DNA of 64,000 nt from an uncultured Gammaproteobacteria bacterium (GCA_964569045.1 CAZMSR010000004.1:6244-70243); one strand, 5' to 3'; numbered from the stretch's first letter, positions 4,032 through 59,651 are shown. Translations and numbers: made by a program. Notes: a model not told the origin generated them from the sequence alone.

Positions 4032-5582
4032 TTAAAGTGCTCTAGAATAATGATTTTTTAAAAACGTATCGTTTGTTTTTATGTCTAGTAGCTTAAGGAT
4101 TGTGTGGGCAACGTCATTTAAGGAACCGGTTGTTCTTAAAAGGCTTAGGTCTTCTTCATTTAATTCAAATTGATTTATGTTCTTTCCTTCATATTTTTTG
4201 TTGATAATTAAAAAAGGGACAGAATGATCGGTGTGTTCTGTTTCAATTGTTTCTATTAATGGATTATACATATATTCAGCATTTCCAAAAGCTGATGTTA
4301 TTAGTAGTGTGCCATTTTTTTTAATTGTTTGATTGTATATTATGCCAATTTGTTCATCAATTTTTTCTATGGCTTTAATTGTCTTATTTATATTTCCTGT
4401 ATGAGCTGCTGTGTCAATTAAGTTGTAAGTTGTAATTATTAAATGATATTTATTGGTGTTTATTTGATTAATTAGTTCTTTTGTGATTTTTATGATATTA
4501 TTTTTTTGATTTAATGTAGTGCTATTTGGTATTAGGATTGTGCTTGTGTTTTTGTTATTTTCTGAGTTTGCACCTAAAAAATACTCCATAAATGCTAGTG
4601 ACTTACTGTCTGTAATTATTAATTGATTTTTGTTGTTTTCTGAAATTAATGAATTTAGTGATAATTGTTTGTTGTTTTTTTGTGTAAAAAAATCATTGTT
4701 TACTATGTGGCCTTTTGATGTAAAAATATTTAAGTGTAAATTTTTGTCGGTTGATTTTTTTTTAAATTTATTAAATTTTTTGCTATAAATTGAATGAAGT
4801 AATTGCCTTAGTTCATATAGATTATTATTAATAAATAGCAAACAATCATTTTTTTTAATTTGTCCTATCGGTATATTTTCTTTGCTTGCTATAATTGGTG
4901 TGATCTCATTATCATTTATAGAACTGTTGTAGTTTTTTAAAATTGAGTCAATTATAGAATTAGTTAAATTACCTGAATTTTCTATTAGTGCTTTGTATGT
5001 TTTTTCTGTTCTTATATAATAGTTTTTTGTGTCTAGAGCATAAAAACCGCCAATTACACTGCAGAGTTTAATTTTATTTTTTATTATTTTCTCTAAATTT
5101 TTTATTAATTCAAAGCCTTCTTTTTTAAAGTTATTTTTGTTATTAAGAAAAATATGTAAAAATATTTTTTTTATATTTTTTTGTTTTAATATTTCTATAA
5201 ATAAAACTATGTTGGATGTAATAGAATTTTCATGCTTTGAATTTATGGAGCTAAATAAATGTATGCTTGATTTATTCTTTGCTGCATGATTTATTGTTTT
5301 TTTTATACATAGATCATTTATTATATCTGACTTTAATAAAGTGATTGGTTGATTTATCGTGTGTTCGTTATTATTCTGTCCAAGAGCTTGATAGTTGGTG
5401 ATTGTATTGTATATTGGATTGGCTGAATTTGCAGTTGATAAAGTAGTAGCAGGATATGTAGAAAATAGTGATTTAAAATTTGGTGTTTTTGCATTTAAAA
5501 TTGCATTTCCGTCGTATTTTTGAAAAATACCCCAACCTTCGATATTAAGTAGTACTAATGGCTTGGTTTGTTTGTTTGTCAT
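4032..5582 (-). CDS. degenerate paralogue of cofactor-independent phosphoglycerate mutase (probable pseudoenzyme)
   Basis: 516 aa, collinear with the neighbouring gpmI: LVLLNIEGWG vs LIILDGWG, IDTAAHTGN vs APDMIGHTGN, EHTDHSVPFLI vs HSTNQVPFII. The catalytic Ser motif GNSEAGH is replaced by ANSANPI, SDGRDS by LNNKNN, and ADHGN by SAFGN. Confidence 0.75.
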   Translation of the reverse strand: MTNKQTKPLVLLNIEGWGIFQKYDGNAILNAKTPNFKSLFSTYPATTLSTANSANPIYNTITNYQALGQNNNEHTINQPITLLKSDIINDLCIKKTINHAAKNKSSIHLFSSINSKHENSITSNIVLFIEILKQKNIKKIFLHIFLNNKNNFKKEGFELIKNLEKIIKNKIKLCSVIGGFYALDTKNYYIRTEKTYKALIENSGNLTNSIIDSILKNYNSSINDNEITPIIASKENIPIGQIKKNDCLLFINNNLYELRQLLHSIYSKKFNKFKKKSTDKNLHLNIFTSKGHIVNNDFFTQKNNKQLSLNSLISENNKNQLIITDSKSLAFMEYFLGANSENNKNTSTILIPNSTTLNQKNNIIKITKELINQINTNKYHLIITTYNLIDTAAHTGNINKTIKAIEKIDEQIGIIYNQTIKKNGTLLITSAFGNAEYMYNPLIETIETEHTDHSVPFLIINKKYEGKNINQFELNEEDLSLLRTTGSLNDVAHTILKLLDIKTNDTFLKNHYSRAL

Positions 5583-5755: not shown

Positions 5756-7354
5756 CTATTTAATGAGTGATCTTGCGGTCATTGTAGTTGGTTTTTTTTC
5801 GTTTAGGATGTCTAGAATTGTTGGGGCTATATTTCCTAAGTATCCATTATTTTTTAGTACTAAAGAATTTTTTAGTTTTTTATTTACAATTATAAAGGGT
5901 ACTTGGTTTGTTGAATGCTTTGTGTTAATTTCGTTAGTTTCAAGATTAATCATTTCTTCGATATTACCATGATCGGCAGTTATTACAATAGTGCCTTCCA
6001 TTTGTAAGTAAGCTTTAACTATCCGTTTTAAGCACAAATCAATTATTTCGCAGCATTTAACGCCGGCCTCTATGTTGCCAGTATGACCAATCATATCCGG
6101 AGCTGCAAAGTTTAATGTAGTGAAATCATTGTGCCATATTAAATTATTTTTTCTTTTAGGAGTTAAAGTAAAAGATTTATGTCTTAAGTTATTAATGACT
6201 ATGTTTGTGAGCTTTATTGAGCTCATTTCCGGGGTTTCTTCGTAGTGTTTGATGTTTGGCGACGGAATCACTTTCCAGGTTTCGTTTGATAAGGGAGCAT
6301 TATAACCTCCATTAAAAAAATAAGTTACGTGAGCATATTTTTCTTTTTCTGCTACATAGAGCTGCCTGTAATTTTTTAAGATAATAGGTAAAGTGTCTTT
6401 TAATTCTATGCCATGAAATGCAGTTTCTATGCTATCTAAATCCGGACCAAAATCAGTCATTGTTACAAATTTTAAGTTTTTTAATACTTTTTTTCTCTTG
6501 AATGAATTTGGATTTTTTTTATTAAACTCTTTTTGAGTGAAACATTTAGTTAGTTGTCTTGCTCGATCTGAGCGTAAATTAAAGAATATTACTGCATCAT
6601 TATTATCTACTCTGGGCAGTAGCTTTTTTTTGTTCTTCATTACAAATGGCTCTATAAATTCATCTGTAATGCCAGCATTGTAGCTTTGAGTTATGGCCGC
6701 TTGAGGGCTATTTGCCGTATTTGCTTCTCCAAGTACAAGAGCATTATATGCTAATTTAGTATTATTCCAGTTTTTTTTTCTGTCCATCCCATAGTATCTA
6801 CCCATAATTGTAGAGATTTTTTTTTCGCCTCTTAGAGAGTCTCTTTCAATTGAGCTAATAAATTTTAAAGCTCCTCTTGGTGAAGAGTCTCTTCCATCAG
6901 AGAAAAGATGCAAGTATGTTTCTTTTACGTTTTCTTTTTCAGAAAGATTAATTAGCATTTTTAAGTGCTCTGGGCTTGAGTGAGGGCTCATTTTCCCAGA
7001 AGCAAGTCCCATGATATGTAATTTGCTTTTATTTTTTTTAACATGTTTAATAGCATTTATAAAAGCATTGTTTTTGAAAAAGAGTCCTTTTTTTATTGAG
7101 CTATCAATTCTTATTGATTCTTGTTCTACTATTCTTCCTGCTCCTATATTTATATGACCTGCTTCTGAGTTTCCATCTTGACCTTTGGGCAAACCGACAT
7201 ATTTTCCATGAGCGTAGATAGTAGTATTTGGAAAAGTTTTTAGAAGATTGTCAAAAAATGGAGTTTTTGATAATGTGATAGCATTGCCTTTTGTTGGATT
7301 TGCAACTCCCCATCCATCAAGTATTATTAGAATTAGTGGTAAAACGTTTGACAT
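5756..7354 (-). CDS. gpmI: 2,3-bisphosphoglycerate-independent phosphoglycerate mutase
   Basis: 532-aa ORF with all iPGM signatures: LIILDGWG, GNSEAGHINIGAGR, HLFSDGRDSSP, APDMIGHTGN, ITADHGNIEEM. Confidence 0.93.
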   Translation of the reverse strand: MSNVLPLILIILDGWGVANPTKGNAITLSKTPFFDNLLKTFPNTTIYAHGKYVGLPKGQDGNSEAGHINIGAGRIVEQESIRIDSSIKKGLFFKNNAFINAIKHVKKNKSKLHIMGLASGKMSPHSSPEHLKMLINLSEKENVKETYLHLFSDGRDSSPRGALKFISSIERDSLRGEKKISTIMGRYYGMDRKKNWNNTKLAYNALVLGEANTANSPQAAITQSYNAGITDEFIEPFVMKNKKKLLPRVDNNDAVIFFNLRSDRARQLTKCFTQKEFNKKNPNSFKRKKVLKNLKFVTMTDFGPDLDSIETAFHGIELKDTLPIILKNYRQLYVAEKEKYAHVTYFFNGGYNAPLSNETWKVIPSPNIKHYEETPEMSSIKLTNIVINNLRHKSFTLTPKRKNNLIWHNDFTTLNFAAPDMIGHTGNIEAGVKCCEIIDLCLKRIVKAYLQMEGTIVITADHGNIEEMINLETNEINTKHSTNQVPFIIVNKKLKNSLVLKNNGYLGNIAPTILDILNEKKPTTMTARSLIK

Positions 7355-15994: not shown

Positions 15995-17839
15995 TTAATT
16001 AATATTAATCTCCTCTCCTTCATTTAATTCACCTATGGTGCTATTAGATTCTTGAGTTTTTTTTGGCTTAATTATTGATGCATTGTTTTGTGTGACATTG
16101 GTAGCTTGTTTATTTGTAGCCCCTCCGAAACGTATTGGGTTTGATCTTAGAGCTTGATTAATCGGTGTAAGATTGTTGTTTGTTTTATTTAATGTACTTA
16201 AATTTAACTTGAAATTGCTGTTTTCTATATTTTCTTTTTTTTGATTAAATCTAGCTATTTCTTCTTGTTTTTGTTTTATTCTTAGGGTTTCTTTATTTTT
16301 TTTTAACTCTTTTTGCATTAAAAGACATTCTTTGCAATATATTGGTCTTAGTCCATCCGGTTTAAATGTAACCATAGTTGTTTTATTACAGTTTGAGCAG
16401 TTTATGATGTTAGTATCTTTTTGGATATTAGATTTGTGTGTGTCGTCTTGTGTGTTAAAGTACTGGGTTGTGCGGCTTGTTCTGTCTGGGTAAATGTATT
16501 TTTTTTCTGGACTAAATTCTTTTTTTACTTTTGTAAAAGGTGGTTGATTTTTTACTCCTTCTTCGGGTTCTTCGTGCCATTTGGCAATTTTTTCTTCAAT
16601 TATATGCCTGTGCATTGAATATTTTTCACGAGAGGCTTTAATTATTTTATCTTGAACATTGGTTTTTTGTTCTAAGGTTTTCGGGGGTAATCCTTTTGCA
16701 GAAAAGGGATCTGAAGCAACTCCATCAATCATTAGTTTGCAGTAAAATTCATATTTTGGAATATTAACTATATCTTGTTCGTCAAATGTTGGTGTGAATT
16801 CTGGAACTAAAGTTTCAGCATCCTGAGCACCAACTCTAAATACTGTAAAAGAGCCAACATTGCCGAAGACTGCGTCTCTTACTTTTTCATCTAATTGTTC
16901 AATGTATTGATGTGCCATTATTAAATTTAAGCGATATTTTCTGGCTTCCGATAATATATTAGCAAAACTTTCTGTGGCAAAATTTTGAAATTCATCAACA
17001 TATAAATAAAAATCTTGTCTTGTTGATTCAGGAATATCTACTCGACTCATGGCGGCTAATTGAATTTTGGTTATCATCATAGCACCAAGTAATTGCATGT
17101 TATCTTCTCCTATTAATCCTTTTGATAAATTCATTATTAAAATTTTCTTTTCATCCATAATTTCTCGGACGTTAATGGAAGATTTTACTTGACCTACAAT
17201 ATTTCTGATCAATGAAGCAGATAAAAATTGCCCTACTTTATTTTGAATAGGAGCAACAGCTTCTGAAGCAAATTTATCTGTATAGCTGGCAAATTCTTTT
17301 GTCCAGAAAGATTTTACTACCGGGTCTTTAATGTGTGTAATTATTTTTTTCCTAAAATCTTTGTCAGAAAGCATACGAACTACAGCGAGTAATGTTGCTT
17401 CTGGATAGTCTAATACTGCTAAAATTGCATTTCTTAGCGTGTATTCAAGTCTTGGACCCCATGAATCTGCCCATAATTTTTTAAATACCCCAAGTAGCCC
17501 TGATGCTACTAAATGTCTGAAATGAGGGTCAACATGTTCAATTACATTGAAAGCAATGGGATGATCAATATCACCTGGATTGAAATATATTACATCGTTA
17601 ATTCTGTGACTAGGTATATATTCAATGATTTTTTCTGCTAAATCTCCGTGAGGGTCTGTAACTGCAAGACCGCGACCAGCATTTATGTCATCAATAATCA
17701 TATTCTCAAGTAGTGTTGACTTGCCCATCCCTGTTTTTCCTATTAAGTACATGTGTCTTCTGCGATCATCAGCCTTGATTCCAAAGCGTCGCATTTCATT
17801 TCTGAAAGTTGTTTTACCAAATAAGGTTATTTCATTCAT
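15995..17839 (-). CDS. TraD/TraG/VirD4-like P-loop ATPase with C-terminal zinc ribbon
   Basis: 614 aa with Walker A GKTGMGKST, Walker B FYLYVDEFQNF and a RKYRLNLIMAHQ arginine-finger-like region. The C-terminus has CSNCNKTTMVTFKPDGLRPIYCKECL (CxxC-x17-CxxC) followed by a K/N/Q-rich tail. Confidence 0.75.
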   Translation of the reverse strand: MNEITLFGKTTFRNEMRRFGIKADDRRRHMYLIGKTGMGKSTLLENMIIDDINAGRGLAVTDPHGDLAEKIIEYIPSHRINDVIYFNPGDIDHPIAFNVIEHVDPHFRHLVASGLLGVFKKLWADSWGPRLEYTLRNAILAVLDYPEATLLAVVRMLSDKDFRKKIITHIKDPVVKSFWTKEFASYTDKFASEAVAPIQNKVGQFLSASLIRNIVGQVKSSINVREIMDEKKILIMNLSKGLIGEDNMQLLGAMMITKIQLAAMSRVDIPESTRQDFYLYVDEFQNFATESFANILSEARKYRLNLIMAHQYIEQLDEKVRDAVFGNVGSFTVFRVGAQDAETLVPEFTPTFDEQDIVNIPKYEFYCKLMIDGVASDPFSAKGLPPKTLEQKTNVQDKIIKASREKYSMHRHIIEEKIAKWHEEPEEGVKNQPPFTKVKKEFSPEKKYIYPDRTSRTTQYFNTQDDTHKSNIQKDTNIINCSNCNKTTMVTFKPDGLRPIYCKECLLMQKELKKNKETLRIKQKQEEIARFNQKKENIENSNFKLNLSTLNKTNNNLTPINQALRSNPIRFGGATNKQATNVTQNNASIIKPKKTQESNSTIGELNEGEEININ

Positions 17840-17981
17840 ATGATTAATAATTATTAATTTTTATTAATATTATTATTTATTAGTTTTTTAGTCAATTTTA
17901 TTGTGTTTTATTATCTGTATTTTGCTTTAGTGAGTATATTTTTTCACTACGGTTGTGGTTTGTTCACTTTTTTATGTTTTT

Positions 17982-19532
17982 TTATTCAAAAGGAAGATTT
18001 GATGGAGTGTTATTTTTTGTTGATTCTAGATTTTCTGGAGATTTTTTTTGATATTTTGGAGTCTTTTCATTTGCATCGAGATCTTGGTGTGAATTATTGG
18101 GTTCTGATATTGTATTAAGCTCTGTTAATTTATTTATGTTATTTTTTTCTTCTTGACTAATTAGGTCTTGTTCGATTTCATTGAAGTTGTTGGTGGATTC
18201 GTCTTCTTTTCCGTCTTTGATTGGTAAAGTTGACGGAGCTTGCGATTTTTTAGCTGCTACTTTTTGCAAGCCAGTTGCTTTAACATATTCGCCTTGTGGA
18301 AAATTCCATAAAGTTGCGAGTTCCTCTATGCTCATTCGCTGCATGTTGCGTCCAGAAGATCCACTACGTCCTATGTAGTTTTTTGTGATTTTATTTTTTC
18401 TTGTATTTAAGCGAGATTTTTTAGGTGCAAATGATAGAGAGGTGGCAGTTTTTTTCATATCAGGTTTTAAGTTGTTTAGCTGAACATCAGCAAATTGTTT
18501 TAAAAACCCAACAAAGCCGTTGACCACTTTTGATTTATTCATTACTTCTTTTTTTGCCATGTACACAAACCTAATTTTAACTTTAAAGTTTGCTTGAGCG
18601 GCTTTTTCAGAAATTGCTTCAATTTTATTTTTTTGTATTGGTTTTAATTCTATCATTTTCAAAGATGCGTCCTCTTCTTCTTTGGTTTCTGATGGAATAT
18701 CGCTCCACATTTTATAAATAAATTCACTAAAACTATGCAAAATACCTATAAGCATGTCAATAATTAGGTCACCTAAATGTTTTTTTGATTTTATTTTCTC
18801 GTTTAATATTTCAGCAATTTCCGGTTCACTTACATCCATTTCATTAAAGCCAATTGGTTTAACAATGATTTGATACCATATTTGCTCCCCATCTCGCAAT
18901 GATCCACACAGATCCATAAGAGCTGATAACGGGTCTTTGTATTGCATTTCAGTTGGACCCATTTGATGTTCAAAGTGTTTGTAGGTTTTAATCGGGTAGG
19001 TTTCATTGTTTGCGTATATAAATTCAGTACCCCATACATCCCATGTATCGTCTGGATATTTTGTCGGCATACCTTCCGTATAATCATCTACTTCTGTTAT
19101 TTCAGCATCCGGATATTGAGAGTAAACTGATGTTTCAATTAAGTTTCTGAATTTTTCCGGAGTATGAATAAGAAATTGTGTGTATCCATTTATACTTACT
19201 ATCTCGTAACTGAAAGTGAGTTGAAATTGACCTTCGATGTACTCTTCAATTAAATTTTGTGTGCCATGTGCTCCACCTAAGTAGCTGAACATGTTTTCTA
19301 CCGCTTTTGGAGATTGCTCATTGCTTCTAGGAATATCTATTGCTAGAAGAATAAATTTAATACCGCCTTTCCATTTACCTTGCTTATTGTCCAACCATAT
19401 TTGATATGCACCAATAAACAGTACTATAACAAAAGATGGTAAGCCAAACCAAAAAAAGATATTTACGAGAGCAATATCTGGAGGTAAGTTAAAAAAATTA
19501 GTGATACCAGAAAAGTCAATGATAATATCCAT
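17982..19532 (-). CDS. hypothetical membrane-anchored protein, upstream partner of the TraD-like ATPase
   Basis: 516 aa. N-terminal TM helices (VNIFFWFGLPSFVIVLFIGAY) are followed by a large globular region (LLAIDIPRSNEQSPKAVENMF...YSQYPDAEITEVDDY) and an acidic/polar low-complexity tail. No named family was recognised. Confidence 0.6.
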   Translation of the reverse strand: MDIIIDFSGITNFFNLPPDIALVNIFFWFGLPSFVIVLFIGAYQIWLDNKQGKWKGGIKFILLAIDIPRSNEQSPKAVENMFSYLGGAHGTQNLIEEYIEGQFQLTFSYEIVSINGYTQFLIHTPEKFRNLIETSVYSQYPDAEITEVDDYTEGMPTKYPDDTWDVWGTEFIYANNETYPIKTYKHFEHQMGPTEMQYKDPLSALMDLCGSLRDGEQIWYQIIVKPIGFNEMDVSEPEIAEILNEKIKSKKHLGDLIIDMLIGILHSFSEFIYKMWSDIPSETKEEEDASLKMIELKPIQKNKIEAISEKAAQANFKVKIRFVYMAKKEVMNKSKVVNGFVGFLKQFADVQLNNLKPDMKKTATSLSFAPKKSRLNTRKNKITKNYIGRSGSSGRNMQRMSIEELATLWNFPQGEYVKATGLQKVAAKKSQAPSTLPIKDGKEDESTNNFNEIEQDLISQEEKNNINKLTELNTISEPNNSHQDLDANEKTPKYQKKSPENLESTKNNTPSNLPFE

Positions 19533-19597
19533 GAATAAATTTTAGCATAATTTTTTATCTGAACCAAGTATGTAGTTGCTGTTGCGTTGTACTTATT

Positions 19598-19926
19598 TAT
19601 ACTATTCCCAATTAAATATTTGGAAAACATTCTTGAATTTCGGCTATAAAATTCGTTTTTCGTTCAACATAATTCATTATTCATTATGCCTCACGCTCCG
19701 GCTTGTTTTTTGTTCGAAATTAAGAAATGTTTTTATTCCAAAGGGACTGTCGCCAAACTCGCTTCAATTCATAAATTTGGAAATTTTAAGATAAATTTTT
19801 TGAATAATTTTTGAGGCATATCCTAAGGTAAGCCAAAAAAATTTGAAAAAAATTTAGCCAAAATTAACAATTTATGGGTGAGGCGAGTTTGGCGACAGTC
19901 CCAAAGTGTTAATTGGGAGTGGTATA
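19598..19926. repeat. composite TATAC-type repeat carrying a nested element
   Basis: Outer arms are TATACTATTCCCAATTAA (19598-19615) and TTAATTGGGAGTGGTATA (19909-19926), 16/18 complementary. Outside the nested insert it is homologous to 5593-5750. Confidence 0.7.
19744..19901. mobile_element. MITE-like element inserted in the outer repeat, with TIRs and a target-site duplication
   Basis: Perfect 20-bp inverted repeat: GGGACTGTCGCCAAACTCGC (19743-19762) and GCGAGTTTGGCGACAGTCCC (19883-19902). It is flanked by direct CAAAG (19739-19743 and 19902-19906). The paralogous site in 5593-5750 is uninterrupted. No coding capacity. Confidence 0.65.
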
Positions 19927-19954
19927 AATTGATTGGTTGTTATTTAAATAAAAT

Positions 19955-19984
19955 AAAAAAATCGGCTATTAGACCGATTTTTTA
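19955..19984 (-). terminator. bidirectional intrinsic terminator after the sigma-r4/HARE-HTH gene
   Basis: AAAAAATCGG-CTATTAGA-CCGATTTTTT begins 14 nt after the stop at 19998. Confidence 0.55.
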
Positions 19985-19997
19985 TATTGATAAATGA

Positions 19998-21143
19998 TTA
20001 GATTAGTGTGTAGCTATTGTTATTTTTTAAAAATTGTTTATTGTTTGTAAGTGCTAAAATTACAGTAGTACGTTTAACAAGTCTTTGTTTTAAGACTTTG
20101 TCGATTATTTCGTCTCTAGATATGGGGTTTTTAGATGTTTTAATTATATCTGCAATGATTTCAGTTACAGTTCCTTTTTTATAACCCCATTCTGTTAATG
20201 TATACATGCCTCTTCCTACTAAAACATATTTTTCTCCCAAAATTAATTCATTATGCACTGTTGCTGCATTTGCCTTTTTTTTATCGAATTGAATTTTATT
20301 AATCTCTTCTGCTATTTGAGTGAAATGCATTGGTTTTTTATTTTCTTTTAAGATCAGGTAAATTTTTTCATTAATTGTCTTTGGTTTAATTTCACTCCAA
20401 TTATTAATCCCCCAATAACCAAGTTTGTTTTGTTCGATGTTTTGAGCAGCAACTAAAAGAGAATAAAGTGGTTTTTCTTGTTTGATTATTGTAAGATCAT
20501 TTGATGTGAGTTTTTTTAAGGCAGGTAAAACATCTACTTGGTTAATTGATGAAAGTTTTGGTTTATTTATTTTAAAAGTATTAAGATTTTTTGCCAAACT
20601 AATAATTTCGTTAGTTGTTAAGATAGAGTTCTTGCTTTGAATATTTTTTGAAAGTTCGTGTATTATTTTTTCTGCATGATTTATATTAGTGTTGTTTTTT
20701 GTTAGGCATTTTTTTAATTGTTTTGAACTTGTTATTTCTTTGATGTTGTTATTCAGAAGTTTTGAAATAATAAAATAGTAATTATTTTTATAAATTTCTT
20801 TGTTGCTATAATTATTGTTTGCAAGTATTATTAGGTGTTCAAGTAGATAGTTTAATTCAATTAAGCCTCCATATTCATTGATTAGATTTATTATATGGTC
20901 ATTTAAAGTATTGATATTCTTTTCTAGAATTTTTAGTTCTTTTATCTTTTTAAGAGCAACAGATTCTAGCTGACGTATTCTTTCTCTTGTTAAATTATGA
21001 TCGCGTCCGATTTCTTCAAGAGTTTGTTTTTTTGGCTCACTTAAGCCAAAACGTCGAGAAACAATATCTTGCTCTCTTTTATTAAGATTGGTAAGTAGTA
21101 ATTTATTTATATCGATTACATTTTGTTGTTGCTTTTGAGGCAT
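19998..21143 (-). CDS. sigma-70 region-4 domain protein with C-terminal HARE-HTH-like winged-helix domains
   Basis: 381 aa. The N-terminus LNKREQDIVSRRFGLSEPKKQTLEEIGRDHNLTRERIRQLESVALKKIK is a canonical sigma region 4.2, and no regions 2/3 are present. The C-terminus MHFTQIAEEINK...ATVHNELILGEKYVLVGRGMYTLTEWGY resembles the HARE-HTH fold of the RNAP delta subunit. Confidence 0.65.
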   Translation of the reverse strand: MPQKQQQNVIDINKLLLTNLNKREQDIVSRRFGLSEPKKQTLEEIGRDHNLTRERIRQLESVALKKIKELKILEKNINTLNDHIINLINEYGGLIELNYLLEHLIILANNNYSNKEIYKNNYYFIISKLLNNNIKEITSSKQLKKCLTKNNTNINHAEKIIHELSKNIQSKNSILTTNEIISLAKNLNTFKINKPKLSSINQVDVLPALKKLTSNDLTIIKQEKPLYSLLVAAQNIEQNKLGYWGINNWSEIKPKTINEKIYLILKENKKPMHFTQIAEEINKIQFDKKKANAATVHNELILGEKYVLVGRGMYTLTEWGYKKGTVTEIIADIIKTSKNPISRDEIIDKVLKQRLVKRTTVILALTNNKQFLKNNNSYTLI

Positions 21144-53444: not shown

Positions 53445-53855
53445 TTATTTCTTTTTAAAAAAATAAATAAACCATTCTTGGGTATTTGAATAATTCGTGT
53501 GATCTGACACATCTATTTCATTGTTTATCTCTTTTTTTTCTTTTGATTTTGCATCTTGTATTACTATTACGTTTTCTCCTTTCTTTTTTAATCCAAAATT
53601 GAGCCTTGCTTGTTTTTCTGTGAATTGGTCTGATTCAAAATAATCTATCATTTTATTTAATTTTGTATTTTGATTTTCTATGAGGGCGATTTCTGATTCT
53701 AAATTTGTAATATCATCGTTTACTTTATATTTTTGAGAAATATTTTTTGTTAGCGGTACACTTATTGATACAATTATAATAATACCAATAAATGTTATTA
53801 TTGCTGGATGAAAAAGTGAGATATTTGATGTAGTTTTTTTGTTTCTAGAGCGCAT
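53445..53855 (-). CDS. septum formation initiator family protein (FtsB/DivIC-like)
   Basis: 136 aa with a single TM helix, then a coiled coil (DITNLESEIALIENQNTKLNKMIDYFESDQFTEKQARLNFGLKKKGENVIVI), the typical family pattern. Confidence 0.6.
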   Translation of the reverse strand: MRSRNKKTTSNISLFHPAIITFIGIIIIVSISVPLTKNISQKYKVNDDITNLESEIALIENQNTKLNKMIDYFESDQFTEKQARLNFGLKKKGENVIVIQDAKSKEKKEINNEIDVSDHTNYSNTQEWFIYFFKKK

Positions 53856-56553
53856 TGCTAGCTTGATTTATTTTTAATGTTTTTTTACTAATAAATTTAA
53901 TTTTTATTATTTCTATCATTATTATTGTTGATACAGCTACTAGTAAAATTACAATCCAACTGTTTAATGATAGTGGCACTGTGTGTAGTGCTTTTTGTAG
54001 TGGTGGCCAATATATGGATATAATTAATAACCAAAAACTTATTAAAACAGCAAGTATTAACATTTTATTATCTAGTATATTTGTTTTCCATATTGGTTCA
54101 CGAAGATTTCTTAAGCTAAAAATATAGAAAAGTGAATCTACACCTATCATAGCAAATATTAGAGTTCTTATATAGTCTATGTTGTAATCGTTGTGATGGA
54201 GGTAGTAAAAGATGCTAAAAATAAAGATATCACGTATTATTCCGGCAGCAAAGATTATTATTTTCATCTCTTTTGATAGGATCGGTTCATTTTTGGACAA
54301 AGGTGCATCATTCATGATTCCTTTTTCAGCTTTTTCAAAGGCTAAAGAAAAGTCTGGTAATCCATCATTAACAATATTAATCCATAGAATTTGAGCTGGT
54401 AATAACGCTAGTGGCATGCCGCATATGATTGACCCTACAATTAATATTACTTCAGAAAAACTATCGGATACTAAATATGTGATAACCTTTCTGATATTGG
54501 CAAAAATTACTCTACCTTGTTTTACTGCAGCAACAATTGTTTTAAAGTTTGAATCAAGGAGTATGATGTCAGATGCTTCTTTGGCTATGTCTGTGCCCTC
54601 ACCAACTGCAATGCCTATGTCTGCAGCTTTTAAGGCTGGTGAATCATTTACGCCATCTCCTGTCATGGCAACAACTTCACCTTTTGATTGCAATGCTTTA
54701 ACAATCCTTAGTTTGTGGTGAGGATTAACTCTTGCATAAAGATTGACTTTATTTACAATCTTTTTAAGAGATGTGTCGGATATTCTATTTAATTGCGTTC
54801 CTGTTAGAATGTTACTTTCTTTTACTGTTAAACCTATTTCCTTGGCTATTGCTTGAGCTGTTAGTTTATGATCCCCGGTAATAACTACAGGCCTTATTCC
54901 CGCTTCTGAGCAAATTTTAATAGTATCACGTGCTTCTTTTCTAAGTGGATCTTTAAGTGCTATAAATCCAATAAAAGTTAAATTATTATCATAATCATTC
55001 CAGTTAATAAAATTTGGGTCAATTTTTTTTCTGCTTTTGAAATTTTTAGTTGCTACACCTATTACTCTTAAACCTCTTTTAGTTAGTTTTTTGTAAGTGT
55101 TGTTTAGTTTGATTTTATCAATTTTTGTGAGTTTTTTCTTTTTATTATTTTCAAAATAAAAATTTGATTTGTTAAGAAGTTTTTCTGCAGCACCTTTTTG
55201 ATATAAGCTGTAGGCATTGTCTTTTTTGTGAAGAGTTATCATGAACTTATTTGCGCTGTCAAAAGGTAGTATTGCTATTTTTGGTTCATTTTTTAACAAT
55301 ATTGTTTTGTTTATACTTGCTTGACTAGCGGCTGACAATAAGGCAGCTTCAGTTGGGTCGCCTATTATTTTCCATTTTGTTAATGGTTCATGTGGATTTT
55401 CTATTATAGCTTCGTTGCATATTGCTCCAATTTTTAGTGCTAATTGAATTGTTTTGGAGTTTTTTAAAGTTGTTGGTTGCTGAGTTGTACTATGACCAAT
55501 GATTATTTCTGAGACGTGCATTTTCCCTTCGGTTAATGTTCCTGTTTTATCTGTGCAAATTACTGTTGTTGATCCTAAGGTTTCAGCAGCAACTAATTTT
55601 CTGGTTAAGGCCTTTCTTTTTAATAATTGCTGCATTCCTAGGGCTAAAATAACTGTTACACCAACAATCAAGCCCTCAGGAATAGAAGCAACTGCAATAG
55701 AAACTCCCATTAGAAACATTTCAAGAGTATCTCTGCCTTGTGCAATGCCAATAATCGCTACAATTACTGAAATTATTCCTATTAGAATGCCTATAAATTG
55801 TGAGAATTTTGTTAGCCTTTTTTGTAGTGGTGTTGTTTCTTTCTGAGTTGTGCTTACTAATTCTGCTATTTTTCCTATTTCAGTATTTGTTCCAATTTCG
55901 CAAATAATTGCCTTAGCACTACCTTTAACACAAATTGTTCCAGCATAAATCATGTTTAATCTGTCCGCTAAGCTTGTGCCACTTGGAAGTGATTTTATAT
56001 TTTTTTCAACAGCTATGGACTCACCGGTGAGTGATGATTCATTAATTTTTAGATTAGTCGCTTCAATTAAACGTGCGTCAGCAGGAATTTTATTTCCAGA
56101 TTTTATTACTATAATATCGCCAATGGTAAGTTCATTTGCGTTTACTTGAATTTCATTGCCATTGCGAATTACATAAGCATTGTGCAATACTAATTCGCGC
56201 AATTTTTGAAGTGCTTGGCTAGCTTTGTTTTCTTGAATATATCCTATAATTGTGTTTATTATTACGGCACCAAAAATAACCATTGCGTCAACCGGTTCAT
56301 TTAAGATTATGGATATAATTCCGGCAAATAAGAGAATGTATATTAGTGGGGATTTAAATTGAGTTAAAAAAATTATCAGTTTTCTGACTGGTTTTTCGCG
56401 AGGTAGCTCGTTTGGTCCATATTTGTTTAACCTAGAAACGTATTCTTTTTTTGTAAGACCGGATAGTCTTGTTTTTAATTTTTTTAAAAGTATGTTTGGT
56501 TGTGTTGAGTGGTATTCTATTTTCATAATAAAATTATAGCATGTTTTGTTCAT
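53845..56553 (-). CDS. cation-transporting P-type ATPase (type II, Ca2+/Mg2+-like)
   Basis: 902 aa with LTGESIAVEK, IPEGL, ICTDKTGTLTEGKM and MTGDGVNDSPALKAADIGIAVG motifs. An alternative start Met lies at 56526. Confidence 0.92.
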   Translation of the reverse strand: MNKTCYNFIMKIEYHSTQPNILLKKLKTRLSGLTKKEYVSRLNKYGPNELPREKPVRKLIIFLTQFKSPLIYILLFAGIISIILNEPVDAMVIFGAVIINTIIGYIQENKASQALQKLRELVLHNAYVIRNGNEIQVNANELTIGDIIVIKSGNKIPADARLIEATNLKINESSLTGESIAVEKNIKSLPSGTSLADRLNMIYAGTICVKGSAKAIICEIGTNTEIGKIAELVSTTQKETTPLQKRLTKFSQFIGILIGIISVIVAIIGIAQGRDTLEMFLMGVSIAVASIPEGLIVGVTVILALGMQQLLKRKALTRKLVAAETLGSTTVICTDKTGTLTEGKMHVSEIIIGHSTTQQPTTLKNSKTIQLALKIGAICNEAIIENPHEPLTKWKIIGDPTEAALLSAASQASINKTILLKNEPKIAILPFDSANKFMITLHKKDNAYSLYQKGAAEKLLNKSNFYFENNKKKKLTKIDKIKLNNTYKKLTKRGLRVIGVATKNFKSRKKIDPNFINWNDYDNNLTFIGFIALKDPLRKEARDTIKICSEAGIRPVVITGDHKLTAQAIAKEIGLTVKESNILTGTQLNRISDTSLKKIVNKVNLYARVNPHHKLRIVKALQSKGEVVAMTGDGVNDSPALKAADIGIAVGEGTDIAKEASDIILLDSNFKTIVAAVKQGRVIFANIRKVITYLVSDSFSEVILIVGSIICGMPLALLPAQILWINIVNDGLPDFSLAFEKAEKGIMNDAPLSKNEPILSKEMKIIIFAAGIIRDIFIFSIFYYLHHNDYNIDYIRTLIFAMIGVDSLFYIFSLRNLREPIWKTNILDNKMLILAVLISFWLLIISIYWPPLQKALHTVPLSLNSWIVILLVAVSTIIMIEIIKIKFISKKTLKINQASNAL

Positions 56554-56629: not shown

Positions 56630-59600
56630 TTGAACAATGCCTAAAAAAGCTATTAATCTAGTCAAACATCATTACAGTAATTTAACTAATAGCCATAAGC
56701 ATTTACCATGGTTGTTGGTTTTATTTATTTTTGTGAATATCTTTGCTATGTCAATGGGTTTTTTTATGTCTAAAAAAACACCATTTATACATCCTTATGC
56801 TGGAGTTGTATTGGCAAGTGGTGGTACCGCGCCTACTTTAGCGCTTGATTCAAATATAAAATTATTGGTTCATTCTGATACATCTAACGGTTCCCAGGTT
56901 TTTATTGATAGTTCTTCGTATAGTCATACTGTTGATTATTTTGATGCTATTGCTCATGAAACTGTTGTCGGTGGAGGACCAACGCCAGTATTCGGAGGTA
57001 GTTCTATTCAGTGTGTTCGTGATGGACGTTTAGAGGTTGTTGATAAAACTAATATTCAGTGGGGTGAACAGCCGTTAGTTATTGAGTCTTGGGTGAGATT
57101 TAATGATGTTGGTAATTGGGATAATTTTTTTGGTGATGGTGGTTCTGATAATGGTGGGATTTGGATTACTTTTGGTCCACCAACTGGAGCTAGATTAGAA
57201 GTTTTTCAAGGCTCATCTCGCGTTGTAGATCTCAATACTGGTGCTGATTGGAGTGGTTGGTTAGCAGATACGTGGTATCATTTTGCAGTTGTTTATGATT
57301 TAAATGGTTGGGGGATATTTAGAGATGGTGTAAGACTAAGTTATACGGCTAATACTGCGTATCCAGGTCCATCAACCACCCCACTCACTTTTGGACATTA
57401 TTTTGATGGTCATATTGATGAAGCTAGTGTATCTATTGGTACTGACAAAGGATGGATTAATGGCTTTACTCCCCCGGCATCTCCTTATTCTGCGTCTCCT
57501 ACAATATCCGGCACAGAAGAAACCGGTGCTACTTTAACCGGAAATTATACATACCAAGACGCTGAAAGTGATCCTGAAGGAACTTCATTATTTCGTTGGT
57601 TAAGTTCAGATACACTAGACGGCACTTATACTCCAATTAGTGGAGCAACTAGCCAAACTTATGTGGTTGACCAAGCATATCTTGGAAAATATCTTAAATT
57701 TGAAGTTACTCCGGTTTCTACCATATCCCCAATTACAGGTAATGCATATTTAAGTGCAGCAACCGGTGCAATAGCGCAAGGAGAGGTGTCACCAACTGCA
57801 ACTAGTTTAAGCATTAGCGGGACCACAGCAATAGGTGAAACTTTAACCGGTAATTATACTTATTCAGATTTAAATGGAGATACAGAGAGTGGATCAGAAT
57901 ATCAATGGTATCGCGCTGCTACAGCTGAAGGTGCATATTCAGCAATTGGCGGAGCAATTTCGCAAACTTATGATTTAGTAATGGCTGATTATCAAAAGTA
58001 CCTTAAATTTGAAGTTACTCCTGTAGCCGATACTGCCCCTACAACAGGAAATTCAGCTACATCTAGTGCTAGTGCGCAGGTTATTGGGACAATGCCAATA
58101 TTAATGCAAAATGGAATTGATTCAAATACAAAATTATTACTACATAATGATGGAAATGGAACAGCCTTTGTAGACGATTCTAATAATGGACATTCTATTG
58201 CTGCTCAAGGTAGTGCTACCCAAAGTGCTACCCAAAGTAAATTTGGTGGGAAAAGTATTTATTTTGATGGTGGGGCTAATGGAGTATCAATCCCGGCTAG
58301 TACTGATTTTGCTTTTGGCACTAATGATTTTACTATTGATTTTTGGATGTATTTTAGTCAAGTTAGAGAAAATCAATATTTTTATGATATTGGCTCAAAT
58401 CAAGAGCAATTTAGACTTTATCAAGGTTATTGGGATTTATACAATTCATCAGGTGGTCAAATTTTTCATATTGCAAATACTCCTAGTGCTGCTTCATGGC
58501 ATCATATTGCCTTGGTTCGCAGTGGTAATACTTTTGAGTTATTTTTAGATGGAACATCTTTAGGTTCAAGTACATATACTGGTACATATGGTAGTAGTGC
58601 CAATACTTTTATGATTGGAAATTATGGCGGAGTAATAGCAGGCGTTGCCTTAGATGGCTATGTAGATGAATTTAGAATTTCTAAAGGAGTTGCGCGCTGG
58701 ACTGAAAATTTTACTTTGCCAACACAAATGTATACAGAACAAGTTTATCTAACAGGAACACAAGAAGTCGGCCAAACTTTAACTGGAAATTACACATTTT
58801 ATGATGCAGAATCTGATTCTGAAGGAGTATCTTTATATCAATGGTATCGAGCAGATGGTGCCGAAGGTGCGTATTCTGTTATTAGCGGGGCAACAAATAT
58901 AACTTATGCTTTAACTTCTAGTGATGCAGCTAAATTTATTAAATTTGAAGTAACACCTGTTTCAACTATAGCCCCAACTATAGGTATAACAGCAACGTCT
59001 AGTGCTACAATCGAGGTTGGTGCTCCGCCAACTGCAACTAGTCTAAGTATTATCGGCACAACAACAGTTGGTGAAACCTTAACCGGAAATTATACATATT
59101 TTGATGCTAATTCTGATTCTGAGGCCACTTCACTTTACCAATGGTATCGAGCTGATACAGCTGAAGGTACATATGCTGCTATTAGCGGAGCAACTTCACA
59201 AGCTTATGTTGCTACTTCTACTGATTTAAATAAATACCTTAAATTTGAAGTTACTCCTGTGGCTGATACTGCCCCAACTATTGGTGAGGTAGCTACAAGT
59301 ACGTCAGTTGGTCCTATAATTGAAGTCGCAGTAGCTCCTGTGGCAACTAATGTAAGTATTAATGGGAACGCTGTAGTTGGTCAGAGTTTATCTGGTGCTT
59401 ATACCTATTCTGATGAAAATAATGATGCTGAAAATTTATCAACATTTAGATGGTTAAGGTCTGATGCTGTTGATGGTAGTTATGTTGCGATATCCGGAGC
59501 TACAAGTTTAAGTTATACTTTAGTAAGTGCTGATGAAAGTAAATACATAAAATTTGAAGTAATACCTAAAGCGGTTAATGCCCCAACTAATGGAGATGTT

Positions 59601-59651
59601 GTGCTTAGTACTGCGTCAGATCAAATTGTATCAACCCCTGTGTCTAATTTA
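56630..59651 (+). repeat. tandem duplication, copy 1 (period 4349 bp)
   Basis: Identical to 60979-64000 at every position I compared except 56642 T vs 60991 C. The ORF track gives identical alternate-frame peptides at 58186 and 62535. Confidence 0.9.

What the first reader, a model, noticed from the sequence alone, without database searches (positions are those of the whole stretch)
15995..19532. Two-gene module: membrane-anchored 516-aa protein plus TraD/VirD4-like ATPase with a zinc-ribbon tail, without any other T4SS or conjugation genes
The 614-aa protein has a coupling-protein / HerA-FtsK-type P-loop core (GKTGMGKST, LYVDEFQNF). Unlike VirD4/TraD it has no N-terminal TM helices. Instead it ends in CxxC-x17-CxxC (CSNCNKTTMVTFKPDGLRPIYCKECL) and a ~110-aa K/N/Q-rich tail.

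The gene immediately upstream supplies the membrane anchor and a large domain that I could not assign. No relaxase, VirB4, VirB6, pilin or mobile-element boundary is nearby; the flanks are core genes (M50 protease, sigma-like protein). An orphan pilT lies 3 kb away.

This looks like a chromosomal, housekeeping-embedded split translocase. In a CPR-like organism that depends on uptake from a host, it could move DNA or protein across the membrane (inference).
Basis: partly seen in the sequence, partly recalled or inferred. Interest (0 to 1): 0.55.

Follow-up and report, generated by a model that had tools for sequence, protein, structure and literature searches.

The report
Split type IV coupling-protein ATPase, Patescibacteria
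These two neighbouring genes are the two halves of one membrane-anchored motor protein of the family that feeds DNA or proteins into bacterial type IV secretion machines; this split version is strongly conserved across the ultra-small Patescibacteria and nobody knows what it does.

Summary
On the minus strand, 17982-19532 encodes a 516-aa protein with one N-terminal membrane helix. 15995-17839 encodes a 614-aa P-loop ATPase with no membrane segment, a CxxC-x17-CxxC zinc ribbon and an N/K/E-rich tail.

The ATPase is a VirD4/TrwB-type coupling protein by Pfam, PDB sequence and fold. The "unassignable" partner is Pfam DUF8128. Its model best matches the N-terminal part of VirB4 (TrwK) at fold level only.

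The two genes are halves of one protein. About 80 Patescibacterial proteins, Bacillus phage G gp156 and SPO1 gp27.4 (phrog_5156) carry both parts fused in the same order. The break falls exactly at the domain boundary.

- Gene order: DUF8128 lies directly upstream of the ATPase in 42 of 53 metagenome loci, but in only about a third of 86 genome loci.
- Link to secretion systems: a fused paralogue without a membrane helix sits beside the replication-origin T4SS locus in two contigs.
- Zinc ribbon: none of the 83 fused proteins has it; all 120 listed split-type ATPases do.

This is a housekeeping-embedded split coupling-protein paralogue, not a conjugative element. Substrate and conduit are unknown. 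The literature notes orphan T4CPs in this phylum but not DUF8128 or the split.

The parts
15995..17839 (-). 614-aa motor half: VirD4/TrwB-type coupling-protein ATPase with no membrane segment
   Evidence: ORF. Pfam TrwB_AAD_bind 37.4 bits (cut-off 20.5) and TraG-D_C 25.7 bits (cut-off 22). Best PDB sequence hit is TrwB. Best fold hits are TrwB at E 4e-8, then Cag-beta, HerA, DotL and the VirB4 C-terminal domain. The core is 60-76% identical across thousands of Patescibacterial homologues, with about 250 invariant columns.
17714..17740 (-). Walker A motif GKTGMGKST (residues 34-42)
   Evidence: Read directly from the sequence. G34 K35 T36 G37 G39 K40 S41 T42 are invariant in 41 homologues.
16979..17005 (-). 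Walker B motif LYVDEFQNF (residues 279-287)
   Evidence: Read directly from the sequence. L279 Y280 D282 E283 F284 Q285 N286 F287 are invariant. The motif aligns with the TrwB Walker B LFIDEL.
16325..16399 (-). CxxC-x17-CxxC zinc ribbon (C481, C484, C502, C505)
   Evidence: PF23477 at 1.7e-10 and TIGR04272 at 3.8e-10, both above their cut-offs. All four cysteines are invariant. Small archaeal proteins with this domain were shown to bind zinc (PMC12704099). The ribbon is absent from all 83 fused homologues.
15998..16324 (-). 109-aa N/K/E-rich tail: a predicted long helix (residues 503-540), then disorder containing two conserved short motifs (SL..L...PV.FKG and a C-terminal EL.EGEEI.F)
   Evidence: Composition, alignment A2 and the AF2 model.
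17982..19532 (-). 516-aa anchor and N-domain half: a DUF8128 (PF26449) protein
   Evidence: ORF. An identical protein, P0001, carries PF26449 in the precomputed table, and more than 1,260 homologues were found. 2,360 representatives of 50%-identity clusters were found. It matches phrog_5156 positions 75-290 and the N-terminal parts of fused proteins.
19392..19478 (-). Single transmembrane helix (about residues 19-47). The N-terminal side is acidic and the following side is K-rich, so the globular domain is predicted to be cytoplasmic
   Evidence: Hydropathy. AF2 helix 18-57 with pLDDT about 90. The orientation is inferred from the positive-inside rule.
18273..19355 (-). Globular alpha/beta domain (about residues 60-420) with a VirB4-N-terminal-like fold, ending in the conserved EELATLWxFP motif
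   Evidence: AF2 pLDDT is mostly 82-95. The top 13 Foldseek PDB hits are all TrwK/VirB4 of R388, with E 5e-4 to 4e-3, probability 0.97-1.0 and TM-score about 0.3. In the viral library it hits phage G gp156 at E 1e-15.
18009..18254 (-). Variable, disordered linker (residues 427-508)
   Evidence: pLDDT below 50. The alignment columns are not conserved.
17985..18008 (-). Conserved C-terminal peptide ..PSNLPFE (consensus PPxNLPFA). It is interpreted as the retained interdomain junction that docks on the ATPase
   Evidence: P510, N512 and L513 are at least 90% conserved and P514 is invariant. In fused proteins the same motif (GEPPANLP) lies immediately before the ATPase N-terminus LTIFGKT.YR. The docking role is inferred.
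19998..21143 (-). Conserved upstream neighbour: a 381-aa protein with sigma-70 region 4 (residues 17-69) and a HARE-HTH / RNAP-delta-like domain (residues 256-320). It may or may not belong to the system
   Evidence: Pfam and NCBIfam hits. It lies directly upstream of the split DUF8128 gene in 77 of 86 loci and in most metagenome loci. It is absent next to fused paralogues.
19956..19983 (-). Terminator-like hairpin just after the sigma-like gene, which suggests that the DUF8128 gene starts a separate transcript here
   Evidence: 11-bp stem followed by a T run. This is a consensus match only.

Best explanation
The two genes encode the two halves of one Patescibacteria-type type IV coupling protein (a T4CP of the DUF8128-VirD4 family).

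- Half 1 (516 aa) is held in the membrane by one N-terminal helix. It exposes a cytoplasmic alpha/beta domain shaped like the N-terminal domain of VirB4. It ends in a flexible linker that carries the old interdomain junction peptide (PPxNLPF).
- Half 2 (614 aa) is the RecA-like motor with the all-alpha insertion typical of TrwB/VirD4. It has intact Walker A and B motifs, followed by a zinc ribbon, a charged helix and an acidic tail that only the split lineage has.

The halves reassemble at the membrane into an ATP-driven, probably hexameric, substrate receptor and translocase.

Most likely job (inferred): it recruits a nucleic-acid or nucleoprotein substrate through the zinc-ribbon tail and hands it to a membrane conduit. 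The most probable conduit is the phylum's own T4SS, encoded elsewhere near the replication origin. In that case this pair acts as a second, specialised coupling protein. It is a chromosomal core gene pair, not part of a conjugative element.

Shown: the family assignments, the split-versus-fused relationship, the membrane-helix distribution, the conservation and the gene order.
Inferred: physical association, hexamer formation, topology, substrate and conduit.
For: ATPase identity:
- Pfam TrwB_AAD_bind and TraG-D_C both score above their cut-offs.
- The best PDB sequence hits are TrwB, then DotL.
- The best fold hits are TrwB, Cag-beta and DotL, ahead of the VirB4 C-terminal domain.
- The Walker motifs are invariant.

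The pair is one protein split in two:
- In phage G gp156 (825 aa), residues 18-168 match DUF8128 (hhalign probability 84%; Foldseek E 1e-15). Residues 373-787 match ATPase residues 24-427 (probability 99.9%, E 4e-34).
- phrog_5156 covers both halves in order.
- 83 of the 120 homologues of gp156 carry both parts collinearly (about 80 Patescibacterial proteins of 725-1142 aa, plus the phage G-like proteins). The boundary falls at ATPase residues 2-6.
- The junction motif GEPPANLP of fused proteins is kept at the C-terminus of the split DUF8128 protein.

Gene order:
- DUF8128 is directly upstream of the ATPase in 42 of 53 metagenome loci, with gaps of -9 to a few hundred nt.
- In complete-gene loci from long genome and metagenome contigs the gaps are 2-8 nt in three cases (L001, L003, L085) and 92 nt in L087.

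Membrane anchor: it is present only in the DUF8128 half.

Link to T4SS:
- 728-aa fused paralogues lie beside DnaA, DnaN, a VirB4-like gene, a TraC-like gene, PrgI and T4SS-pilin genes.
- Phage G gp156 lies next to a VirB4-like gp155 and a TrbL-like gp153.

Not a mobile element: there is no relaxase, integrase or compositional island, and the neighbours are housekeeping genes in about 170 loci.
Against: - No T4SS gene lies in the window or in the extra 10 kb of contig seen. In none of about 170 loci is the split pair next to T4SS genes.
- The published survey found only 148 of 5,713 Patescibacterial T4CP homologues near virB4. It also notes that the T4CP homologue of S. epibionticum is dispensable while the T4SS is essential (PMC12102498).
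- The ATPase core is 60-76% identical across classes. That is more conserved than conjugative coupling proteins usually are, and it suggests a core cellular role.
- In about half of the closest species representatives the ATPase is not next to DUF8128.
- The VirB4-N-terminal-domain resemblance is fold-level only. TM-scores are about 0.3, and there is no sequence-profile support against TrsD, TrsE, gp155 or Pfam.
- The ATPase model has only moderate confidence (pLDDT 64.5).
- No interaction, hexamer or substrate was tested.
Confidence: 0.6

Rival explanations
1. Same split coupling-protein architecture, but exapted. The zinc-ribbon lineage would be a T4SS-independent core machine of Patescibacteria. 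It could be a membrane-tethered DNA motor used in DNA uptake, nucleotide scavenging, chromosome handling at division, or another envelope-linked process. It might work with the sigma-region-4/HARE-HTH protein encoded just upstream.
For: - The ATPase core is extremely conserved, with about 250 invariant columns.
- The sigma-region-4/HARE-HTH gene is constantly adjacent to the split DUF8128 gene (77 of 86 loci). It is absent next to fused paralogues.
- Cell-wall and division neighbours recur: MurB, Mur ligase, MreBC, a GT2-like membrane protein, DivIC, a PBP and FtsEX.
- The zinc ribbon and tail motifs are confined to the split lineage.
- A separate fused paralogue already sits at the T4SS locus in some lineages.
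- The authors of PMC12102498 state that exaptation of T4CPs cannot be ruled out.
Against: - Nothing positive points to any particular alternative conduit or substrate.
- The envelope and division neighbours vary between lineages, and most are missing beside the pair in this window.
- Gene order in small, dense genomes can be inherited without a functional link.
- A terminator-like hairpin separates the sigma-like gene from DUF8128 here.
- The higher prevalence of T4CP (96%) than VirB4 (80%) in assemblies can be explained by about two T4CP genes per genome plus MAG incompleteness. It is therefore not evidence of independence.
- FtsK is reported in at least one member of the phylum (papers found, not examined further).
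Confidence: 0.3
2. A remnant or cargo of a conjugative or integrative mobile element.
For: Membership of the T4CP family. Phage and T4SS-like contexts of distant homologues.
Against: - No relaxase, integrase, repeats or GC shift.
- The same housekeeping gene order occurs in dozens of distant species.
- There is strong purifying selection.
Confidence: 0.02
3. An anti-phage defence module of the HerA / mads type.
For: PADLOC hits to mad8 (8e-13) and HerA (2e-8) for the ATPase. The sigma region 4 resembles that of MzaA.
Against: - The hits cover only the generic P-loop core or sigma region 4.
- There is no effector partner such as a nuclease or Sir2.
- Near-universal, single-copy, syntenic conservation is unlike a defence island.
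- DUF8128 has no PADLOC hit.
Confidence: 0.03
4. Two unrelated genes that merely lie side by side.
For: In this window the two genes are 142 nt apart. The ATPase is elsewhere in many genomes.
Against: Collinear fusions exist in about 80 Patescibacterial proteins and in Bacillus phages, and one phage family profile covers both halves.
Confidence: 0.02

Closest known systems
VirD4 / TrwB / TraD / TraG type IV coupling proteins (Pfam TrwB_AAD_bind, T4SS-DNA_transf, TraG-D_C)
   Same: RecA-like nucleotide-binding domain with an all-alpha insertion and Walker A/B motifs. They are the best sequence and fold matches in the PDB. The protein is membrane-associated through an N-terminal anchor.
   Different: - The anchor is on a separate polypeptide. 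It is one helix plus a roughly 360-residue globular domain, rather than two helices with a short loop.
- The protein has an added C-terminal zinc ribbon and tail.
- No relaxase or T4SS genes lie nearby.
- It is much more conserved than plasmid T4CPs.
Fused DUF8128-T4CP proteins of Patescibacteria (for example P0423 Berkelbacteria 937 aa, P0429 Falkowbacteria 829 aa, P0450 Saccharibacteria 945 aa, and P0485/P0490 of 728 aa beside the T4SS locus)
   Same: The same two domains in the same order. The ATPase part is mostly 40-60% identical and the N-domain 20-29% identical. The junction motif PPxNLP and the EELAxxxHxP motif are shared.
   Different: - They are single polypeptides.
- None has the zinc ribbon or tail.
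- Some lack the membrane helix.
- They are not preceded by the sigma-region-4/HARE-HTH gene.
Bacillus phage proteins of phrog_5156 (phage G gp156, SPO1 gp27.4, CP-51, JL, Shanette, SP8)
   Same: Fused N-domain plus T4CP-like ATPase, about 30% identical in the motor. They act as a Rosetta stone for the pair.
   Different: - They are viral and of unknown function.
- Their neighbours are a VirB4-like and a TrbL-like protein (phage G), or a Replic_Relax protein and an actin-like protein (SPO1).
- They have no zinc ribbon.
VirB4 (TrwK of R388), and split VirB4 as in TrsD + TrsE of pSK41/pGO1
   Same: The DUF8128 model best matches TrwK at fold level. The logic is the same, with an N-domain and a motor on separate polypeptides. 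VirB3-VirB4-type membrane anchoring of a hexameric ATPase is a useful working analogy.
   Different: - The motor half is closer to VirD4 than to the VirB4 C-terminal domain.
- There is no sequence-profile similarity to TrsD, the TrsE N-terminus or Pfam VirB4 families.
CxxC-x17-CxxC domain proteins (TIGR04272 / PF23477), such as the small zinc-binding proteins of Methanosarcina mazei
   Same: The same treble-clef zinc-ribbon motif, scoring above the family cut-offs.
   Different: Here the motif is a C-terminal appendage of a large ATPase, not a stand-alone small protein.

Membership tests
VirD4/TrwB-type coupling protein (T4CP) | Nucleotide-binding domain of the VirD4 clade with Walker A and B motifs | tested here: met
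   PF10412 at 37.4 bits (cut-off 20.5) and PF12696 at 25.7 bits (cut-off 22). TrwB is the best PDB hit by sequence and by fold. The motifs are invariant.
VirD4/TrwB-type coupling protein (T4CP) | All-alpha domain inserted between Walker A and Walker B | tested here: met
   The AF2 model has six helices between residues 105 and 213, lying between Walker A (34-42) and Walker B (279-287). The PF10412 match spans profile positions 11-301. The model has only moderate confidence.
VirD4/TrwB-type coupling protein (T4CP) | N-terminal transmembrane domain on the same polypeptide | tested here: not met
   The ATPase has no hydrophobic window. The anchor is on the separate DUF8128 protein.
VirD4/TrwB-type coupling protein (T4CP) | Genetic or functional coupling to a T4SS channel and a relaxase or effector substrate | tested here: not met
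   None is present in the 64-kb window or in the extra contig sequence. None lies next to the split pair in about 170 loci. Presence elsewhere in the genome could not be tested.
VirD4/TrwB-type coupling protein (T4CP) | Hexameric ring with DNA-dependent ATPase activity | not testable with these tools
   Needs biochemistry, or multimer modelling, which was not available.
Pfam DUF8128 (PF26449) | Match to the family model | tested here: met
   The precomputed PF26449.1 hit is on the identical protein P0001 and on nearly all homologues. The local Pfam search returned no match to this model for any of the 52 members, so the copy appears to lack it.
VirB4 (N-terminal domain) | Fold of the VirB4 N-terminal domain | tested here: inconclusive
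VirB4 (N-terminal domain) | Sequence-profile similarity to VirB4/TrsD N-terminal families | tested here: not met
   No Pfam VirB4 family is hit by any of 52 members. hhalign against TrsD, TrsE and phage G gp155 gives probability below 1%. These comparisons used single-sequence templates, so sensitivity was low.
CxxC-x17-CxxC zinc ribbon (TIGR04272 / PF23477) | Four cysteines with the family spacing, and a score above the cut-off | tested here: met
   The cysteines are invariant. Zinc binding itself was not tested.
phrog_5156 (fused phage family) | Both halves match one profile in collinear order | tested here: met
   DUF8128 matches positions 75-290 (1.5e-12) and the ATPase matches positions 408-817 (3.5e-67).
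FtsK/SpoIIIE DNA translocase | Match to the FtsK_SpoIIIE motor domain | tested here: not met
   PF01580 scores E 0.063 and 13.1 bits against a cut-off of 24, over the P-loop only.
HerA-type defence ATPases (PADLOC) | Full-length match plus an effector partner | tested here: not met
   Only partial P-loop matches. There is no partner, and DUF8128 has no hit.

The most novel reading that the evidence does not exclude
The split, zinc-ribbon lineage is not a secretion-system accessory at all. It would be a phylum-wide core machine of Patescibacteria: a membrane-tethered coupling-protein-derived DNA motor that works with the always-adjacent sigma-region-4/HARE-HTH DNA- or RNAP-binding protein. It would import, segregate or otherwise handle DNA independently of the T4SS. 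That would be a housekeeping exaptation of conjugation hardware in organisms that cannot make their own nucleotides.
Probability: 0.25. Interest if true: 0.8.

Novelty: new variant of a known kind. Interest (0 to 1): 0.55.

Why it matters
Patescibacteria make up a large share of bacterial diversity, and most of their conserved genes have no known function.

A published survey counted about two VirD4-like genes per genome, almost never next to virB4, and left their role open. This analysis adds four points:
- These coupling proteins carry a previously undescribed N-terminal domain (DUF8128) with a VirB4-like fold.
- The family has several paralogous lineages, one of which lies next to the origin-proximal T4SS.
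- The most conserved lineage found here is split into two genes, has gained a zinc-ribbon tail, and travels with a sigma-region-4/HARE-HTH gene.
- Bacillus phages carry the fused form.

This gives concrete, testable handles on what orphan coupling proteins do in epibiotic bacteria with reduced genomes: a two-protein interaction, a docking peptide and a zinc ribbon. It also bears on how VirB4 and VirD4 architectures are related.

Tried and rejected
- Local Pfam and NCBIfam scans of the 516-aa protein gave nothing. The local Pfam search returned no match to PF26449, so the copy appears to lack it. The family name came from the precomputed tables.
- PDB sequence searches with the DUF8128 protein and its profile gave only noise.
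- hhalign of the DUF8128 profile against pSK41 TrsD, TrsE and phage G gp155 found no relationship. hhalign of the ATPase profile against TrsE (76%) and TrsK (22%) did not discriminate.
- The R388 accession was not in the plasmid collection.
- An apparent 1,213-aa fusion of the ATPase with the downstream GT2-like membrane protein in L067 looked like a second Rosetta stone. It is an artefact of a masked run of N and was rejected.
- I considered the prevalence argument (T4CP in 96% of assemblies, VirB4 in 80%; PMC12102498) as evidence of T4SS independence and rejected it. Two T4CP genes per genome at about 80% completeness would give the same figures.
- Defence-system reading: only generic P-loop matches.
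- Mobile-element reading: no supporting feature.
- FtsK-like reading: no family match.
- Whole-genome co-occurrence of the pair, of the fused paralogues and of the T4SS could not be tested. The left end of the source contig could not be extended.
- No paper mentions DUF8128 or PF26449.

Full report
**1. Observation**

The minus strand carries a 516-aa ORF at 17982-19532 and a 614-aa ORF at 15995-17839, 142 nt apart.

- Walker A, GKTGMGKST, at residues 34-42.
- Walker B, LYVDEFQNF, at residues 279-287.
- CxxC-x17-CxxC at residues 481-505.
- A 109-residue N/K/E-rich tail.

The zinc ribbon scores above the curated cut-offs of TIGR04272 and PF23477.

A hydropathy scan finds one membrane-helix-sized segment, at residues 19-47 of the 516-aa protein, and none in the ATPase.

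The surroundings are housekeeping genes: an M50 peptidase, a TsaB-like protein, UppS, QueH, a PilT-like ATPase, a PfkB kinase, an ABC system, ClpB, GroEL and a P-type ATPase. No T4SS, relaxase or integrase gene is present. There is no compositional island. About 10 kb of the source contig beyond the right end of the window adds none either.

**2. What the ATPase is**

Three lines of evidence point to the coupling-protein family:
- Pfam gives TrwB_AAD_bind (residues 23-327) and TraG-D_C, both above their gathering scores.
- The only solved relatives by sequence are TrwB and then DotL, whether searched with the single protein or with a 41-sequence profile.
- The AF2 model has moderate confidence (pLDDT 64.5, core about 80). 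Its best fold matches are TrwB (E 4e-8), Cag-beta, HerA and DotL, and then the VirB4 C-terminal domain (4e-6).

The helices at residues 105-213, between the Walker motifs, correspond to the all-alpha domain of coupling proteins.

The protein is extraordinarily conserved. All 8,000 scored candidates were significant, and the listed ones are 55-76% identical. About 250 columns are invariant in a 41-sequence alignment. Sources name it [quoted passage not shown] or "CxxC-x17-CxxC domain-containing protein".

**3. What the partner is**

The 516-aa protein has more than 1,260 homologues, nearly all labelled Patescibacteria where a label exists. In the precomputed tables they carry Pfam PF26449, DUF8128. 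An exhaustive profile search finds 2,360 representatives of 50%-identity clusters. No paper in the library mentions this family.

The AF2 model (pLDDT 76, pTM 0.69) shows four parts:
- A long N-terminal helix.
- A well-predicted alpha/beta domain at residues 60-420.
- A disordered linker at residues 427-508.
- A conserved C-terminal peptide with consensus PPxNLPFA.

Against the PDB, the top 13 Foldseek hits are all TrwK, the VirB4 of plasmid R388. Probabilities are 0.97-1.0, but E-values are modest and TM-scores are near 0.3. Sequence-profile comparisons with TrsD, TrsE, a phage VirB4-like protein and Pfam give nothing. I therefore call the domain VirB4-N-terminal-like at fold level only.

**4. 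The two genes are one protein split in two**

- The DUF8128 model hits Bacillus phage G gp156 at E 1e-15 in the viral structure library.
- The ATPase hits the same protein at 30% identity (E 2e-44). It also hits SPO1 gp27.4, CP-51, JL, Shanette and other Bacillus phages.
- Profile comparison places DUF8128 on gp156 residues 18-168 and the ATPase on residues 373-787.
- One phage family, phrog_5156, covers both halves in order.
- A search with gp156 returned about 80 Patescibacterial proteins of 725-1142 aa that carry PF26449 and PF10412 together.
- BLAST shows that these are collinear with the two window proteins. The boundary falls at ATPase residues 2-6.

In the fused proteins the sequence reads ...EELASIFHLP...GEPPANLP-(short linker)-LTIFGKTDYR...GKTGTGKST. 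The conserved C-terminal peptide of the split DUF8128 protein is therefore the old junction, kept at the end of a new flexible linker. I infer that it docks on the ATPase.

None of the 83 fused proteins has a zinc ribbon. All 120 listed split-type ATPases have one, and none has DUF8128.

**5. Gene order**

Around 86 DUF8128 loci, mostly GTDB species representatives:
- A gene for a sigma-70-region-4 plus HARE-HTH protein lies directly upstream in 77.
- The ATPase lies directly downstream in about 35.
- In a second arrangement, which includes a complete Falkowbacteria chromosome, DUF8128 is followed by glycosyltransferase and envelope genes instead.

Around 80 ATPase loci from metagenomes, which span wider divergence:
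- 53 loci have enough upstream sequence to judge.
- 42 of those 53 have DUF8128 directly upstream, often overlapping or within tens of bases.
- The sigma-like gene usually lies before DUF8128.

When the ATPase is unlinked it sits with a GT2-like membrane protein, DivIC, a PBP and FtsEX. The adjacency is frequent but not universal. The fusion evidence carries the functional link.

**6. Relation to secretion systems**

Fused paralogues of 728 aa without a membrane helix lie next to the origin-proximal T4SS locus in two independent contigs. That locus holds DnaA, DnaN, a VirB4-like gene, a TraC-like gene, PrgI and T4SS pilins. Other fused paralogues sit among housekeeping genes, and one contig has two in tandem. 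In phage G the fused gene follows a VirB4-like gene and a TrbL-like gene. In SPO1 it is flanked by a Replic_Relax protein and an actin-like protein.

The literature gives the wider picture:
- It reports 5,713 VirD4-type homologues in 2,918 of 3,035 Patescibacterial assemblies, with only 148 near virB4.
- It notes that the homologue of S. epibionticum is dispensable while the T4SS is essential, and it leaves exaptation open (PMC12102498).
- The original Tn-seq paper describes the T4SS as lacking a recognisable coupling protein (PMC10633639).

I note that two T4CP genes per genome, at typical MAG completeness, would by themselves give 96% against 80% prevalence. The prevalence figures therefore do not show independence.

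**7. Mechanism**

Shown:
- A membrane helix on one half only.
- A VirB4-like N-domain.
- An intact coupling-protein motor.
- A split exactly at the domain boundary.
- A retained junction peptide.
- A zinc ribbon specific to the split lineage.

Inferred:
- The N-domain faces the cytoplasm (positive-inside rule).
- The halves reassemble.
- The motor forms a hexamer, like TrwB.
- The zinc ribbon and charged helix bind nucleic acid or a partner protein.
- The complex feeds a substrate to a membrane conduit.

I consider the phylum's T4SS the most probable conduit, with this pair acting as a second, specialised coupling protein. A T4SS-independent core role is a serious rival. Three observations support that rival: the extreme conservation, the constant sigma-HARE neighbour, and the existence of a separate paralogue at the T4SS locus.

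The mobile-element, defence and chance-adjacency readings are rejected.

**8. Novelty and verdict**

The ATPase family, the zinc-ribbon domain and the DUF are all catalogued. The existence of orphan T4CP homologues in this phylum is published.

I did not find the following described:
- The DUF8128 domain as the N-terminal half of these coupling proteins.
- Its VirB4-like fold.
- The split, zinc-ribbon lineage and its conserved gene order.
- The fused phage relatives.

This is a new variant of a known kind. It is of moderate interest, with a minority chance of being a truly new core machine.

Noticed in passing
window 19998-21143 (-), and the gene directly upstream of DUF8128 in L001-L087 and L097-L176: A protein of 340-410 aa combines sigma-70 region 4 at its N-terminus with a HARE-HTH / RNAP-delta-like domain near its C-terminus. 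It lies directly upstream of the split DUF8128 gene in 77 of 86 loci, even where everything else around differs. It is absent next to fused paralogues. Whether it is part of the system or a conserved transcription factor is unknown.
   Followed up: partly
window 19590-19935 (intergenic, between the sigma-like gene and DUF8128): A set of nested inverted repeats, including perfect 20-nt arms GGGACTGTCGCCAAACTCGC 120 nt apart. It folds into a long hairpin of about 340 nt (-110 kcal/mol, z = -11 against shuffles). It occurs once in the window and is absent from the 96 loci fetched at that point (L001-L096). It makes this spacer 465 nt, against about 90-240 nt elsewhere. It looks like a MITE-like insertion or a structured leader.
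   Followed up: partly
L089 (Bacillus phage G 85999-99210) and L090 (SPO1 86981-100102): Large Bacillus phages carry the fused DUF8128-T4CP protein (gp156; gp27.4). In phage G it lies next to a VirB4-like ATPase (gp155) and a TrbL/VirB6-like protein (gp153). In SPO1 it lies next to a Replic_Relax protein (gp27.3) and an actin-like ALP/Alp7A protein (gp27.9). This looks like a T4SS-like or DNA-handling module of unknown role in phages.
   Followed up: partly
L094 4899-10784: One Patescibacterial contig carries two DUF8128-containing genes (831 aa and 927 aa) in tandem, separated by a 178-aa ORF. The family therefore has several paralogues per genome.
   Followed up: no
L001, L003, L085, L086, L087 and other type-A loci: The ATPase is often followed by DUF1361, a highly conserved 500-540-aa multi-pass GT2-like protein (65-72% identical between species), a P-type ATPase and DivIC. 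In the window only the P-type ATPase and DivIC pair remains (53445-56553). The GT2-like gene is not in the window.
   Followed up: partly
L067 4152-7793: An apparent 1,213-aa fusion of the ATPase and the GT2-like protein is an artefact of a masked run of N in the assembly.
   Followed up: yes
window 4032-5582 and 5756-7354 (-): Two adjacent genes both match the cofactor-independent phosphoglycerate mutase families (iPGM_N + Metalloenzyme). One matches much more weakly, so this looks like a diverged tandem duplicate.
   Followed up: no
window 56637-60860 (+) and the next gene beyond the window (L095 14350-18579): Two tandem proteins of about 1,400 aa with Laminin_G_3 and repeated AIR9-type Ig domains, followed by a 1,864-aa protein with no family. 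These are probably surface or adhesion proteins.
   Followed up: no
   Followed up: no
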